Assembly: GCA_021513715.1 (NCBI GenBank)
Contig: CP084167.1
Span: forward strand, 2,048,001-2,112,000
Length of the DNA: 64,000 bases
Direction: 5' to 3'
From: Candidatus Heimdallarchaeum endolithica
Lineage (GTDB): Archaea > Asgardarchaeota > Heimdallarchaeia > Heimdallarchaeales > Heimdallarchaeaceae
Shown piece by piece: positions 1,671 through 57,180 of this stretch. The stretch's first letter is position 1. Every line of letters starts with the position of its first letter. The position numbers were made by a program, and so were the translations under genes. Below the pieces are notes generated by a model. It was given only the letters and a program-made list of their open reading frames with translations, made no database searches and was not told the origin of the DNA.

Positions 1671-3392
1671 CTACAATTCAATTCTCGGGTCAACAGCAAC
1701 GTAAAAGATATCCGTTACTAAATTACCTAAAAGGATCAAAATAGTAAGAATAGCAGTTGTACCCAAAATCATTGGAAAGTCTAATAATCCAACAGCAACA
1801 ACATACCTATAACCCAAACCTGGCCAAGTGAAAAGCGTTTCTGTAATGGGAGCACCAGCTAAAGCTGAAGCTAAAAACAGACCCACATAGGTAACTACAG
1901 GAATAAGAACATTTCTCCAAGCATGTTTCCAAGTAATAACTCGTTCAGAAAGGCCATTAGCTCGAGCAGCTAAAATATAATCTTGACGAAGGACTTCCAA
2001 CATGGTTGTTCTAACTAAACGAGTATAAGTAGCGAGAGAAGCAAATGTCAAAGCGGTAGTGGGGAGAATCATGTGAATTATCGAATCACCCGTACGCGTC
2101 ATCAACGAGCTCCACCATGTTCCCCAATCACCAGCACGAAGTGCCGACCAATCAACCATTGGAGTTGGAATAGAATGTGCTTTTGCAGCAGGTAACCAAC
2201 CCAAGCCATATCCACTGAAGATGTAAATAAGCATTAAACCAAAAACGAAGATAGGCATAGATAGACCAAGAAGGGCAATAGTACTAGCAGTAGAATCAAT
2301 CCAAGTATTCTGGTTTTTAGCAGCCACTACACCTAGGGGAATAGCTATAAGTAAAGCTAAAACGAAAGAAGCAAGTTGAAGTTTTAATGTCTCCCAAACA
2401 AGTTCGCCAATCATAGTATTAATAGAACGACCACCACGATAACTTTCACCCATATTACCATGAAGGAAGTTATAAAACCAAATAACAAAACGAGCATAAA
2501 CAGGTTGATCCAACCCAAGAGAACGAGTAAGATTAATCTTGTCTTCCTCAGTAACGTTGATTTTACCTAAAAGTAAGAGAGCAACAGGGTCACCCAAACC
2601 AGAAACCATTACAAAAGTCATAACCATAATAGCAATAAACAAAGGAATAAGTGTAAGAAGACGGCGAAGAATATAGATAGTCAACCTCATTGTAGCAAGT
2701 TGTTTAATAAAAGATACAGGTTTAGAGTTAGAGAATTTTCTGCTAAAAGTGCCCTCAACAGGTTTGGTCCAATCAACAGGTAAGAACAAACCCGTTAAAG
2801 CAAGAAGAACGCCAATAATATAAACATAAAACATGAAAGTCATTTGGCCACGTAATGTAATTAAGAAATAAGATGGATTACTATCATTGGGATTGAAAGT
2901 TACAGCAGCTGAAGGAGTAGCTGTCTGCCCAGATAAAAGAGTTTTATATTCATTAGCAGTGAAGTTCAAAGTTCGGTTGATAGCGATTATAAGAACAATC
3001 AAAGAAACTAAAAGAAATAACGCAGCCATGATATCAGCCATATTACCTCTCTTTTTTACGCCTCCAGATTGAAATACTTGGCCTAAAGCGGCAGCAAGAA
3101 CACTGAAAAATAACAAAAACCATAGTGAAGCAGAAAGTATGACTATATTACTCGGAATCTGTAACTCAGTATACACCTTAGTAACGTTGTTGTTGTAATC
3201 ATAGCCAATAGTATTATACTCAACTCTTGAACCAAATATACGAATTAAAAGAGAATCCTGTGTATACTTGTCATGCTCACTCAGAGGAGTAGCATCATAA
3301 TAAATTTTATAGATAGGCACAAAGGCCGTGGTGAATATTAAGACAAAACCTAATACTTTCAATCCAATTGCAATTGCTTTCAAGTTGATCAA
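1671..3392 (-). CDS. oppB: Peptide ABC transporter permease (OppB/DppB) with long N-terminal membrane extension
   Basis: YILRRLL...LGLDQP, DYILAARANGL, ITETLFTWPGLG, DPRI; about 235 extra N-terminal residues with TM segments. Confidence 0.9.
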   Translation of the reverse strand: MINLKAIAIGLKVLGFVLIFTTAFVPIYKIYYDATPLSEHDKYTQDSLLIRIFGSRVEYNTIGYDYNNNVTKVYTELQIPSNIVILSASLWFLLFFSVLAAALGQVFQSGGVKKRGNMADIMAALFLLVSLIVLIIAINRTLNFTANEYKTLLSGQTATPSAAVTFNPNDSNPSYFLITLRGQMTFMFYVYIIGVLLALTGLFLPVDWTKPVEGTFSRKFSNSKPVSFIKQLATMRLTIYILRRLLTLIPLFIAIMVMTFVMVSGLGDPVALLLLGKINVTEEDKINLTRSLGLDQPVYARFVIWFYNFLHGNMGESYRGGRSINTMIGELVWETLKLQLASFVLALLIAIPLGVVAAKNQNTWIDSTASTIALLGLSMPIFVFGLMLIYIFSGYGLGWLPAAKAHSIPTPMVDWSALRAGDWGTWWSSLMTRTGDSIIHMILPTTALTFASLATYTRLVRTTMLEVLRQDYILAARANGLSERVITWKHAWRNVLIPVVTYVGLFLASALAGAPITETLFTWPGLGYRYVVAVGLLDFPMILGTTAILTILILLGNLVTDIFYVAVDPRIEL

Positions 3393-3621
3393 CTCTGACT
3401 AATTTTAATTATACCTTAAAGAATAATATTCTTTTCTTTAACTCACCAATTGTTGATATTTTTATAAGTTTTTTCTAAAGAAATCAAATGATAAGTTAAG
3501 ACAAAAAACTAAACAAAAGAAGACAATAATTAAAAAAAATAAAAAAAGAAGAAACAGAGAGGAAAAAAGTCAAAAATAAACTTTTTTGCTGTTTAAATAA
3601 GATAATAGAGTTAACAACGCT

Positions 3622-4494
3622 ATGAAGAAATTGAAGAACAAAAATTCGGAAAAATTGAGAGAAAAGGTAGTAATAATAACGGGAGCATCTTCAGGAATAG
3701 GGGAACAAGTAGCAAAAGAACTAATAAAATACAAAGCGAAAGTAGTACTATTTGCAAGAACAGAAGAAAAACTAAATAAAGTAGAACAAATACTACAAAG
3801 AAAAAAAATTGACACATTAAGGATAGTAGGAGATATAAAGAAAAACGAAGATATAAAGAGAATAGTAGATGAAACATTAAAGAAATACGGAAAGATAGAC
3901 GTATTACTAAACAATGCAGGATATGGAAAGAATATTGATTTCTTAGAGCAAAGTGATGAAGACATAGAAGAAATGATAGAAACAAACGTGACAGGATTAA
4001 TAAAATTAACAAAAAAAGTAGCAAAAATAATGAAAAAACAAGGAGAAGGGCATATCATAAACATGTCATCTGCAATTGCAGCAGTGCCAACCTATAGGTT
4101 CACAACTTACTGCATAACAAAAGGAGCAGTAAAAATATTAAGCGAAAGTATAAGAAACGAACTAAAAAAAAGTGGAATAAAAGTAAGCACAATTTATCCT
4201 GCACTCCACGATACACCATTCTGTGAAAAAGCTAATATAAACACAAAAACATTCAAAACATACAAAAAAGAGGATCTAGCAAAAGAAATAGTAAAAATAA
4301 TGATAAACAAGAAAAAAGAGTTATATTACCCAAAAATGTATGGAATACTAGCGAAATTAACAGAACACAGCACACAAATAAAAACAGAACTTAGTAAATT
4401 TTTTTCTCGTAAACTAGAAGAAAGTAGATTAATTGAAAAAAGCGAAATAAAAGGAACAAGAAGGCAAACAAATACTAGTAAAACAGTTAATTAA
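3622..4494 (+). CDS. Short-chain dehydrogenase/reductase
   Basis: TGASSGIG, NNAG and YCITK (YxxxK) motifs. Confidence 0.92.
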   Translation: MKKLKNKNSEKLREKVVIITGASSGIGEQVAKELIKYKAKVVLFARTEEKLNKVEQILQRKKIDTLRIVGDIKKNEDIKRIVDETLKKYGKIDVLLNNAGYGKNIDFLEQSDEDIEEMIETNVTGLIKLTKKVAKIMKKQGEGHIINMSSAIAAVPTYRFTTYCITKGAVKILSESIRNELKKSGIKVSTIYPALHDTPFCEKANINTKTFKTYKKEDLAKEIVKIMINKKKELYYPKMYGILAKLTEHSTQIKTELSKFFSRKLEESRLIEKSEIKGTRRQTNTSKTVN

Positions 4495-4683
4495 TGATAT
4501 TTAAAGGAAGAAGAAGAATTAATTTACTACCCCATCTTTAACCTTTTGGTTTATTGAATAAATGATTCTTTTTTGCAATTTAATCAAAAAAAAATAGAAT
4601 AAAACCAAGAATTAGAAGCATTATAACTGTTGATTTTAAAAGTTCTTAATAAATAAGGGGACAGTTTGTATACAGTGATAAAA

Positions 4684-4809
4684 ATGGCAGAAAGAAAAAT
4701 AGGAAGAACAGAAAAATACTGGAAACAAAGACCAGTACAAAAAAGAACGAGACGTGAAGAATTAACTCAAACTTCAATGTATCTCACACAAAGAAGGTGT
4801 ATTAAATAA
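4684..4809 (+). CDS. Putative 41-aa basic small protein
   Basis: MAERKIGRTEKYWKQRPVQKRTRREELTQTSMYLTQRRCIK*; clean ORF followed by T-rich tract; no recognised family. Confidence 0.4.
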   Translation: MAERKIGRTEKYWKQRPVQKRTRREELTQTSMYLTQRRCIK

Positions 4810-4915
4810 AAGGACTATACACCATTTTAATCTATTTTTTTAAACTTTGAATTCCATTAAAAATAAAAAAGTATAATTGTTAATAAAACTAAAGAATATA
4901 AAATAAGCACGTAAA

Positions 4916-55915: not shown

Positions 55916-55916
55916 C

Positions 55917-56111
55917 TTTCATTTTTCTTATTTCAAATTAACACTTTTTCAACCTTGTTTCTTTTCGTGAATCACACGTGCTTGCCAATAAAATTTTTCA
56001 TTTTTCTTATTTCAAATTAACACTTTTTCAACCTTGTTTCTTTTCGTGAATCACACGTGCTTGCCAATAAAATTTTTCATTTTTCTTATTTCAAATTAAT
56101 ACTTTTTCAAC
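55917..56111 (+). repeat. 79-bp tandem repeat, about 2.5 copies
   Basis: atttttcttatttcaaattaa starts at 55921, 56000 and 56079. Confidence 0.92.
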
Positions 56112-56238
56112 TTTTAAATGTTGTATGAAATCGGTTTTTACCTAATATATTTCTTTAGTAATTTAAAAAAGATAATTAACGAATCAGCATATCTAGCGTT
56201 TTACTTTGTTTTTTTTTTAAATTAATTTTAACCTATCC

Positions 56239-57132
56239 TCAATTTATTTTATCCTTTTTTTTGTTTATTTCCTCAACTAATTTTTTTATTTCCTTATCCT
56301 GATCTTCCTTATTTAGTGCAAATCTAAACATTGCATCAGGTTTTTGTATTTTTACTATATCACTTGTTATTGTTAATTTTTCTCTATTTATCATTCTATA
56401 ATTATCTATTGCTGTAAAGTATTTTTCTGGTTCGTATGTTATTATTGTTCCTGGTCCTACTAATATTACTATATTTGCTTTTCTCACGCACCACGCTGGA
56501 TGAGCTGAGTTGTTAAACCCCTCAATTAGTATTATTTTTTCTTTTTTTTCCCAATAATTAAATGTTGATTCTGTTGCTTTAGCATAATAATCCATATTTA
56601 GAGCTATATACTCTTCTTCATTTGAGTATGTATTTATTTTCTCTGCTTTTTTTCTTAATTCTTCTATTATCTCTTCTTCATTAAAGAACTTTGTATTTTT
56701 ATAGCTTTGATTATTTATTATGTAGTAATTTTTGCTTTTATTCTCTTCTTCTATAATTGTAAATCTTTGTATTAGCGCCACACTTTCTGTAAATCTATTA
56801 TAATAAGTTTGAGTCACTCCTTCCTTTATGAATTCGTAAGGTATTGCTGGTGTATTTAATTTATGAACTGGGTTATTAATTGTTGGATTTTCTACTTTAG
56901 TCTCTGCTTGTTCTACTAGTTCTACTATATCTAGTGATAGTATCTCTTTGTATTTATCAAAATTTTTTCTTATTTCTTTGAAGTTATAATATAAATTATT
57001 CCCACTTAAAGGTTTGAAAGGTTGGACTTTTATTCCTTGTTCTTCTTTGAATTGTCTCATTATTTCCTTGCTTAGTGTCGTTTTACCCGAGTTGTATTCC
57101 AATAATCCAGCTACAAAGATAACAAAAACCAT
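56239..57132 (-). CDS. Archaeal predicted P-loop ATPase/GTPase
   Basis: VAGLLEYNSGKTT, FKPLSG, NPV, LIEGFN. Confidence 0.75.
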   Translation of the reverse strand: MVFVIFVAGLLEYNSGKTTLSKEIMRQFKEEQGIKVQPFKPLSGNNLYYNFKEIRKNFDKYKEILSLDIVELVEQAETKVENPTINNPVHKLNTPAIPYEFIKEGVTQTYYNRFTESVALIQRFTIIEEENKSKNYYIINNQSYKNTKFFNEEEIIEELRKKAEKINTYSNEEEYIALNMDYYAKATESTFNYWEKKEKIILIEGFNNSAHPAWCVRKANIVILVGPGTIITYEPEKYFTAIDNYRMINREKLTITSDIVKIQKPDAMFRFALNKEDQDKEIKKLVEEINKKKDKIN

Positions 57133-57180
57133 ATTTGCACAATTACTTTACTCAATTTAAGTATTTTTTTCAGTATATTT

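What the first reader, a model, noticed from the sequence alone, without database searches (positions are those of the whole stretch)
1671..57180. Strand skew flips at tRNA genes: A-rich to the left, T-rich to the right, regardless of gene direction
Seen: the + strand is A/purine-rich approaching, and T/pyrimidine-rich leaving, tRNA-Val (5272), Ala (25011), Ile2 (28387), Leu/Glu (38537-38972), Gly (54264) and Gly (55808), although these tRNAs lie on both strands. Genes pointing toward a tRNA have A-rich coding strands, often K/E/I-rich (SDR, rpl37e/Lsm, MBL nuclease, lipA, 44710, 56239). Genes pointing away have T/C-rich codons (oppB, 23120, R15P isomerase, nep1, rpl11, beta-helix copy 1). Near-pure purine tracts abut tRNAs (37850-38530, 53980-54263). 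tRNA-Pro is the exception, with T-rich sequence on both sides and cassettes on its left. Inference: a strand-asymmetric mutational process is nucleated at tRNA loci, for example replication initiation, fork pausing or recombination/repair-primed synthesis. This would imply an unusual, possibly multi-origin chromosome organisation.
Basis: partly seen in the sequence, partly recalled or inferred. Interest (0 to 1): 0.85.

Follow-up and report, generated by a model that had tools for sequence, protein, structure and literature searches.

The report
Strand-bias flips at archaeal tRNA genes
In a vent-dwelling Asgard archaeon, DNA within about 2 kb of half its tRNA genes (and inside its transposons) has been rewritten to be A-rich on the strand running toward the site and T-rich on the strand running away, strongly enough to dictate codon choice, most likely a scar of repeated break repair and gene exchange rather than of extra replication origins.

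Summary
The genome is Ca. Heimdallarchaeum endolithica (Asgard; inferred). Near tRNAs, fourfold sites are A53/T32% in genes pointing toward and A26/T59% pointing away (background 41/44). The effect fades over about 2 kb and ignores tRNA direction and fork direction. 18 of 36 tRNA loci are strong centres; 14 tRNAs show nothing. 23S/16S rRNA ends, actin, secY, ileS and IS midpoints also flip. It is equally strong in H. aukensis, faint in the family, and absent in four more distant Asgard genomes.

Ordinary origins do not fit: a separate single-origin skew with another spectrum runs through the tRNA zone, and cdc6 loci do not flip. General transcription does not fit either (r-protein genes, SRP and RNase P RNA are flat). 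Centres are enriched for recent inter-species exchange tracts and insertion junctions. In IS elements the bias shows in propagated variants, not in copy-private ones. Best model (0.45): recurrent break and inward gap-repair copying that fixes damage from one strand only. The break source is unknown, and inteins do not flip. No paper found reports it. Other first readers saw it in this genome only.

The parts
5272..5349 (+). tRNA-Val(GAC), moderate centre (amplitude 0.33, z 11)
1671..5271 (.). Left flank of tRNA-Val: oppB (away, fourfold A45/T188) and SDR (toward, A69/T10)
25009..25121 (-). tRNA-Ala(GGC) with T-loop intron; centre (0.37, z 8.6). Some other strains carry a 2-3 gene cassette inserted here
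   Evidence: sequence
28387..28513 (-). CAT-anticodon tRNA with intron (Ile2 by inference from the anticodon stem); strong centre (0.69, z 18)
27285..30479 (.). Flanks of tRNA-Ile2: R15P isomerase (away, A9/T114), MBL nuclease (toward, A85/T7), nep1 (away, A9/T85)
37159..37214 (-). Duplicated 3' end of tRNA-Leu(TAG) (att-like copy, 88% identical to 38512-38567)
37850..38530 (+). Non-coding purine tract (81% purine) on the approaching strand; the antisense ORFs here were rejected by the gene model
38537..38972 (.). Divergent tRNA-Leu(TAG, -) and tRNA-Glu(TTC, +, intron); strongest centre in the window (z 19, best change point about 39240-39330)
39185..44465 (+). Tandem cassette zone left of tRNA-Pro: beta-helix gene copies 39387-40766 and 42288-43673 (2.9-kb spacing, 79-93% identical), both T-rich, plus an exact tRNA-Pro 3' copy at 42066-42104. 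Content varies between strains
44465..44541 (-). tRNA-Pro(TGG): right flank strongly T-rich (44710 gene toward, A103/T12); left flank displaced by cassettes
53980..54263 (+). Purine tract (89%) abutting tRNA-Gly
54264..54370 (+). tRNA-Gly(TCC) with intron; centre (0.51, z 14.3). H. aukensis alignment jumps by 35.6 kb 188 nt from it; rpl11 (away) A6/T75
55808..55915 (+). tRNA-Gly(GCC) with intron; centre (0.38). A 13-kb island absent from H. aukensis begins about 1.3 kb to its right and carries cas1/cas3

Best explanation
The centres are sites of recurrent DNA breakage and recombinational copying. At a break, both strands are trimmed back for about 2 kb on average. The gap is refilled by synthesis from both outer 3' ends inward, using a sister or foreign chromosome as donor. 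On each flank only the donor's 'leaving' strand is then inherited as template: its damaged purines and deaminated bases become fixed (A>T above all, also G>T, C>T, A>G), while damage on the 'approaching' strand is never copied. Repeated over evolutionary time this gives A-rich approach and T-rich exit, symmetric about the site and blind to gene, tRNA and fork direction. The same inward copying across an excised or replicating element gives the mid-element flip of IS elements. SHOWN: geometry, decay length, spectrum, lineage range, association with exchange tracts and insertion junctions, symmetric mutation in resting IS copies. INFERRED: breaks, double-strand gaps, the polymerase rule, and what makes the breaks (mobile-element nucleases or integration, or conflicts at some strongly transcribed loci).
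For: Symmetric and sharp. Change points resolve to roughly 10-150 bp, pooled decay constant about 2 kb. Upstream vs downstream p=0.62, ori-proximal vs distal p=0.14, head-on vs co-directional p=0.79. The shift is nearly the same in every codon family and neighbour context. In time-matched endolithica/aukensis comparisons, A:T pairs number 580, against 842 predicted for pure extra mutagenesis and 374 for pure suppression; a model with one direction up and the other down predicts 500-531. Low-divergence, recently exchanged tracts cover 0.37 of the 2-kb flanks of strong centres vs 0.23 after local shifting (P=0.005), and 0.05 at flat tRNAs. Non-IS insertion or rearrangement junctions lie at 12/30 centres vs 7/104 intergenic controls. 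The secY centre is exactly the boundary of a partial secY duplication. The PPDK centre abuts a free-standing LAGLIDADG gene. Aloposons, HeimV1/V2, HeimM2 and CRISPR C3/C4 insert at tRNA or 16S sites in this genus (PMC8813620). Four IS families flip mid-element (median z 3.7-7.6) with flat flanks. IS5-like homologs show the gradient in this family (A/T skew +0.36 to -0.26) but not in family f3 (+0.03 to +0.13). Copy-private IS changes are symmetric (A>T 2.15 vs T>A 2.14 per 100 bases), whereas shared ones are biased (R>Y 73, Y>R 85, expected fraction 0.61, p=0.0002). NurA, NucS, MutS and a Y-family polymerase are encoded. T. kodakarensis HerA-NurA degrades both strands (PMC12977600).
Against: No break was observed; everything is inferred from sequence. 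Nine LAGLIDADG-domain sites, mostly inteins and several polymorphic between the two species, show no flip, although homing is also gap repair. Exchange-tract breakpoints are not enriched at centres (4 vs 4.4 expected). Junction enrichment does not separate strong from flat tRNAs (12/30 vs 2/12), and some centres were defined by elements. Met-i, Arg-TCG, Ser-GCT and hypD centres have no exchange tract. No integrase sits at the window's cassettes: one tyrosine recombinase in G000, none found in G001. Repair genes are shared with relatives that have only a faint tRNA effect. The private-vs-shared IS contrast could reflect selection on active copies or mispolarised old splits. Several centres are presumed highly expressed genes (actin, EF-2, both thermosomes), and amplitude correlates weakly with codon demand (rho 0.39, p=0.013).
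Confidence: 0.45

Rival explanations
1. Auxiliary local replication initiation (R-loop-primed, or in-situ replication of an integrated element) at these sites. The leaving strands are lagging templates left single-stranded for an unusually long time over the first 2 kb.
For: The geometry fits a bidirectional bubble. Transition biases have the same sign as the global leading strand (twofold C/T -0.49 vs -0.25; G/A +0.74 vs +0.09). Several protein-gene centres lie about 170-220 nt after the start of presumed highly expressed genes. HeimV1 replicates bidirectionally (PMC8813620).
Against: The A/T shift is 20 times the global one and the G/C shift has the opposite sign. The global skew keeps its sign through the tRNA zone and there is no local effect beyond 5 kb. 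cdc6 loci are flat. No shared motif was found. It does not explain IS midpoints.
Confidence: 0.18
2. Recombination hotspots with strand-polarised biased gene conversion. In heteroduplex DNA, EndoMS/NucS cuts T:T and G:T mismatches but ignores A:A and A:C, so T>A, G>A and T>C are driven on the invading (approaching) strand.
For: The flux pattern fits a fixation bias (531 predicted vs 580 observed). NucS is present. The EndoMS specificity is published (PMC4838380). Twofold-site shifts go the predicted way. Exchange tracts are enriched.
Against: Polarised young changes on the approaching strand are A>T 15, T>A 16 although A is twice as common; unfiltered new mutations under a pure fixation bias would be about 2:1 (small numbers, and the branches may already be filtered). 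It needs frequent A/T heterozygosity. MutS is also present.
Confidence: 0.12
3. Selection for strand polarity around these loci (guiding a translocase or SMC, chromatin phasing, or terminating outward read-through).
For: The flux is fixation-bias-like. The same isotypes are strong or flat in both species.
Against: No context, tract or motif dependence. It pushes amino-acid composition of core genes. It is hard to see why unrelated IS families would share it, or why 14 tRNAs lack it.
Confidence: 0.12
4. Bidirectional outward transcription from strong promoters, with transcription-coupled repair of the template (approaching) strand and damage to the non-template strand.
For: The spectrum is what protection of the approaching strand gives. 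Centres include rRNA, actin, EF-2 and thermosomes. Optional C34 tRNAs are mostly flat (p=0.03).
Against: Ribosomal-protein and other basic genes far from tRNAs have A=T at fourfold sites (1303/1268). SRP RNA, RNase P RNA, EF-1a, histones, tRNA-Asp and tRNA-Phe are flat. The metagene profile shows no start or end effect.
Confidence: 0.1
5. Trivial causes: gene orientation, amino-acid composition, or assembly error.
For: Coding strands here are A-rich at codon positions 1-2. Archaeal skews have been attributed to gene orientation (bioRxiv 10.1101/2023.11.15.567178).
Against: The effect is strongest at fourfold sites and reverses with direction to the tRNA; toward and away genes are about equally common; intergenic DNA agrees. 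Independent assemblies are 88-98% identical over the window.
Confidence: 0.02

Closest known systems
Strand-asymmetric mutation footprints at mammalian meiotic DSB hotspots (Hinch et al. 2023, PMC7615360; the purine-to-pyrimidine skew flip of Smagulova et al. 2011 is from memory, paper not held)
   Same: Focal centre, antisymmetric substitution bias, roughly 2-kb flanks, independent of genes.
   Different: Here the bias is large enough to set codon usage (A85/T7 beside A9/T114), is mainly A<->T and context-free, sits at tRNA/rRNA/core genes in a prokaryote, and shows no excess divergence. No break map exists.
Replication-associated (replichore) skew and multi-origin archaeal chromosomes (Sulfolobales, Halobacteriales)
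   Same: Sign flip about a point, symmetric on both strands; transitions biased in the same direction as this genome's leading strand.
   Different: Decays within 2-5 kb, is purine/pyrimidine rather than keto, is not at cdc6, and is superimposed on an ordinary single-switch skew.
tRNA integration hotspots and islands, including Heimdallarchaeum aloposons, HeimV1/V2, HeimM2 and CRISPR C3/C4 (PMC8813620)
   Same: Same loci; att-like tRNA 3' copies and strain-variable cassettes are in the window.
   Different: Integration alone does not rewrite resident core genes on both sides. That paper has no occurrence of 'skew'.
Homing and transposon donor-site gap repair with flanking co-conversion (own knowledge)
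   Same: Inward synthesis from both ends with distance-decaying tracts; a LAGLIDADG gene lies beside one centre; TnpB elements flip.
   Different: The intein sites here show no flip; no compositional footprint of this kind is known to me.
Transcription-associated skew and transcription-coupled repair around bidirectional promoters (own knowledge)
   Same: Outward non-template strand T-rich on both sides.
   Different: Highly expressed r-protein genes, SRP RNA and RNase P RNA lack it.

Membership tests
Canonical archaeal replication origin (cdc6/ORB) | Adjacent orc1/cdc6 gene | tested here: not met
   cdc6 at 2150139 and 2279313 are flat (z at most 3); the third lies 2.8 kb from tRNA-Pro(GGG) and the peak is on the tRNA
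Canonical archaeal replication origin (cdc6/ORB) | ORB or other shared initiator motif at the centre | tested here: inconclusive
   Motif search at 12 centres scored no better than controls; the ORB regex also found nothing at cdc6, so its sensitivity is unproven
Canonical archaeal replication origin (cdc6/ORB) | Local skew has the replisome's leading/lagging spectrum and extends to a terminus | tested here: not met
   A/T -2.09 and G/C -1.59 locally vs -0.10 and +0.38 globally; gone beyond 5 kb
Canonical archaeal replication origin (cdc6/ORB) | Marker-frequency or Okazaki switch | not testable with these tools
   Needs reads from growing cells
DSB/recombination hotspot | Antisymmetric substitution footprint of about 2 kb | tested here: met
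DSB/recombination hotspot | Elevated exchange between lineages around the site | tested here: met
   Low-divergence tracts 0.37 vs 0.23, P=0.005; flat tRNAs 0.05. One species pair only; breakpoints not enriched
DSB/recombination hotspot | Elevated substitution rate at the site | tested here: not met
   Time-matched transitions at 0.9-1.15 of expectation; A:T flux well below the extra-mutagenesis prediction
DSB/recombination hotspot | Physical breaks or RadA-coated ssDNA | not testable with these tools
   Needs END-seq or ChIP
tRNA integration hotspot | att-like tRNA-end duplications and variable cassettes | tested here: met
tRNA integration hotspot | Cognate integrase beside the cassette | tested here: not met
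   One tyrosine and two serine recombinases in G000, all over 1.6 Mb from the window
Homing-endonuclease co-conversion | Footprint at intein and HEG sites | tested here: not met
   Nine LAGLIDADG sites flat (flip -2.2 to +1.3); one free-standing HEG abuts the PPDK centre
Transcription-coupled repair skew | T-rich coding strand in highly expressed genes | tested here: not met
   A1303/T1268 in r-protein-like genes; expression itself was not measured

The most novel reading that the evidence does not exclude
Heimdallarchaeum has focal, meiotic-hotspot-like break and gap-repair sites at selected tRNA, rRNA and core genes. They channel gene exchange between lineages and cassette capture without integrases, and are used so often that one-strand inheritance has rewritten codon usage and protein composition for kilobases.
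Probability: 0.2. Interest if true: 0.92.

Novelty: new variant of a known kind. Interest (0 to 1): 0.74.

Why it matters
It is a very large, position-dependent substitution bias in a lineage close to the root of eukaryotes, and I found no report of it. It gives a sequence-only map of where an uncultured Asgard archaeon most likely breaks, repairs and exchanges DNA, and makes questions about Asgard recombination and replication organisation testable with END-seq, OK-seq and population reads. It also matters in practice: codon-bias, expression prediction, HGT detection and phylogenies using genes next to tRNAs (rpl11, secY, EF-2, actin) in this genus carry a strong positional composition bias that reaches amino acids (K+E+I 0.38-0.40 toward vs 0.15-0.27 away).

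Tried and rejected
ARAGORN with a lowered threshold gave 499 spurious calls. Rfam at non-tRNA centres found only 23S, 16S and tRNA-Gln, and nothing at ileS, secY, actin, hypD, EF-2 or PPDK. The motif search was negative and the ORB regex found nothing. My first idea that low divergence near centres shows purifying selection was dropped: it is mostly mosaic exchange tracts. The idea that tracts end at centres was rejected. A first polarisation that seemed to favour fixation bias (young 24:14) did not survive better branch-age classes (15:16). A codon-based expression proxy was weak and gave no metagene signal. Inteins are flat. The tRNA-Pro att core had no match in viral contigs. The metagenome scan gave one useful contig. 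Smagulova 2011 and Pratto 2014 are not in the library, so their polarity is recalled, not checked. Ten literature searches and text checks of PMC8813620, PMC12680538, PMC12999951, PMC13343696, PMC11529989 and PMC10030826 found no mention of the pattern; subscription papers are not covered. Gene calls outside the window come from my own ORF model.

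
Full report
Identity. The window is C1:2048001-2112000 of a single 3,326,783-bp contig with 31% GC. Its RuBisCO-like protein is 96% identical to that of Ca. 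Heimdallarchaeum aukensis (3,081,793 bp). Wu et al. 2022 give 3.32 and 3.08 Mb for H. endolithica and H. aukensis (PMC8813620). I therefore take it as H. endolithica (inference).

Observation. The raw AT-skew flip (1 kb left minus 1 kb right) is positive at 35 of 40 tRNAs, for + and - tRNAs alike. It is not a coding-strand effect. At fourfold sites 500-1000 nt from a tRNA, genes pointing toward it have A0.53/T0.32, genes pointing away A0.26/T0.59, and distant genes A0.41/T0.44. Intergenic DNA agrees, and toward and away genes are about equally frequent. A coding-corrected scan gives 19 peaks at z>=12 in the A-then-T direction and none in the reverse. Eleven are at tRNAs, two are rRNA-linked (23S 3' end; the displaced sequence downstream of 16S), and the others are the actin 3' end, ileS, secY, oppC, the end of a giant gene and one further large gene. 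Mean z at 36 tRNA loci is 7.14, against 0.22 (maximum 2.8) for matched intergenic sites. Centres are sharp and the pooled decay constant is about 2 kb. The named window genes behave as described.

Limits of the first description. Fourteen tRNAs are flat (amplitude <=0.10), including Asp-GTC, Phe-GAA, elongator Met and most optional C34 isoacceptors. The same isotypes are strong or flat in H. aukensis. Amplitude correlates only weakly with codon demand (rho 0.39) and intron presence (p=0.04), and not with tRNA direction, side relative to the origin, or head-on orientation. tRNA-Pro in the window has its left flank replaced by tandem beta-helix cassettes bounded by copies of its own 3' end. Cassette content at tRNA-Ala, Pro and Gly differs between strains.

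Range. The toward-versus-away fourfold AT skew is +0.23/-0.36 here and +0.28/-0.43 in H. aukensis. It is -0.05/-0.14 and -0.02/-0.12 in two family members, +0.06/-0.16 in one class member, and shows no such contrast in four other Asgard genomes. The orthologous RuBisCO-like gene in family members, still near tRNAs, is close to flat. So the bias was amplified in place in this genus.

Not ordinary origins. Far from tRNAs the genome has a normal keto skew that switches once near 2.2 Mb and keeps its sign across the tRNA-dense 1.8-2.2 Mb zone; cdc6 neighbourhoods do not flip. In log-ratio units, local away-minus-toward is A/T -2.09 and G/C -1.59, whereas global leading-minus-lagging is -0.10 and +0.38. 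The transitions do share sign (twofold C/T -0.49 vs -0.25; G/A +0.74 vs +0.09), which keeps a special form of local initiation alive as a rival.

Not general transcription. R-protein-like genes far from tRNAs have A1303/T1268. SRP RNA, RNase P RNA, EF-1a and histone genes are not centres. Metagene profiles show no kilobase effect. Yet actin, EF-2 and both thermosome genes are centres, so expression may contribute to where events start.

Substitution process. The shift is nearly identical across codon families and neighbouring bases, and no motif was found. Between the two species, after matching for local divergence, transitions and the other transversions occur near the expected numbers; the main change is in A<->T. 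Observed A:T pairs total 580, against 842 for extra one-way mutagenesis, 531 for fixation bias, 500 for redistribution between strands and 374 for one-way suppression. So A>T rises on the leaving strand and falls on the approaching strand. Twofold sites add C>T and A>G on the leaving strand. Read chemically (inference), the leaving strand behaves as a damaged template and the approaching strand as freshly made. Young polarised changes from additional strains are A>T 15 and T>A 16 on an approaching strand with twice as many A as T. The bias is thus active now, but the numbers do not separate mutation from conversion.

Link to recombination. The two species are mosaics of about 4%, 13% and 29% third-position divergence. 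Low-divergence tracts are enriched around strong centres (0.37 vs 0.23 after local shifts, P=0.005) and rare at flat tRNAs (0.05), while tract ends are not enriched at centres: tracts span the centres. Non-IS insertion or rearrangement junctions fall at 12/30 centres against 7/104 intergenic controls, though also at 2/12 flat tRNAs. The secY centre is the edge of a partial duplication, and the PPDK centre abuts a LAGLIDADG gene. Published mobile elements of this genus insert at tRNA and 16S sites, but no integrase lies near the window's cassettes.

IS elements. Following leads from other first readers, I confirmed that IS5-like, IS6-like and TnpB elements flip at their midpoints at fourfold sites while their flanks are flat. 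IS5-like homologs show the gradient across this family but not in family f3, so it follows the host lineage, not the transposase. Changes private to one copy are strand-symmetric; changes shared by several copies favour purines on the approaching strand (p=0.0002 against composition). An IS has no break at its centre, but it is copied inward from both ends. That fixes the geometry of the preferred model: the first-made strand is the approaching, purine-rich one.

Model and rivals. The simplest single account is recurrent breakage, double-strand trimming and inward gap repair (0.45). NurA, NucS, MutS and a Y-family polymerase are present, and a thermococcal HerA-NurA degrades both strands (PMC12977600). 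Against it: no direct evidence of breaks, flat inteins, centres without exchange tracts, and no genus-specific gene identified. Rivals are auxiliary initiation (0.18), EndoMS-biased conversion (0.12; specificity from PMC4838380), selection (0.12) and bidirectional transcription with coupled repair (0.10). Gene orientation or assembly error is excluded.

Novelty. Antisymmetric footprints of about 2 kb are known at human meiotic breaks (PMC7615360), and skew flips are known at origins, so the kind is known. A tRNA-centred footprint of this strength in a prokaryote did not appear in ten searches or six papers checked. Within the scan it was noted only in this genome. Verdict: real, strange, mechanism likely but unproven; interest 0.74.

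Noticed in passing
G000 vs G001, 1.15-2.7 Mb: H. endolithica and H. aukensis are mosaics: about 17% of aligned third positions lie in near-identical tracts (about 4% vs 29% background), implying recent gene flow across the species boundary. One long tract covers cdc6 at 2.15 Mb.
   Followed up: partly
window 37064-37170 and 43696-43820: Inverted repeat pair (70-83%) of CTATCA-rich sequence flanking the Leu/Glu/Pro cassette zone, suggesting an old inversion or terminal repeat.
   Followed up: no
window 39185-44465; L318-L322, L329: Strain-variable cassette stacks at tRNA-Pro, -Leu, -Ala and -Gly 3' ends with no integrase nearby; G001 had no PF00589 match. Integron-like accretion by an unknown recombinase or by repair.
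   Followed up: partly
L083 (G000 about 2130990-2131260): (AAGAG)n satellite of about 270 bp directly downstream of the 23S rRNA; the 23S carries a 0.68-kb LAGLIDADG intron absent from H. aukensis.
   Followed up: no
window 25009-25121; L086 (G000 2516102-2516212): tRNA-Ala(GGC) and tRNA-Lys(CTT) have introns in the T-arm and are missed or scored below cut-off by ARAGORN and Rfam. Pseudo-copies of Ala, Glu and Asn tRNAs occur elsewhere.
   Followed up: partly
L087 (G000 1825717-1825817): About 100 bp of ileS immediately beside the centre are highly diverged between the species (41 mismatches; replaced peptide) next to a 98% identical tract, like a gene-segment replacement.
   Followed up: partly
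G000 1699393, 2951792, 2600047, 1898668, 2487577: Centres in both thermosome genes, EF-2, secY and hypD all lie 170-220 nt after the start codon; unexplained.
   Followed up: partly
window 57200-63890: A 13-kb island with cas1 and cas3, absent from H. aukensis, begins just right of tRNA-Gly(GCC) and ends at tRNA-Cys.
   Followed up: no
G000 whole genome: tRNAs, rRNAs and r-protein genes cluster at 1.75-2.55 Mb around the skew switch near 2.2 Mb; the replichores look unequal (negative half-difference from 0 to 2.2 Mb).
   Followed up: no
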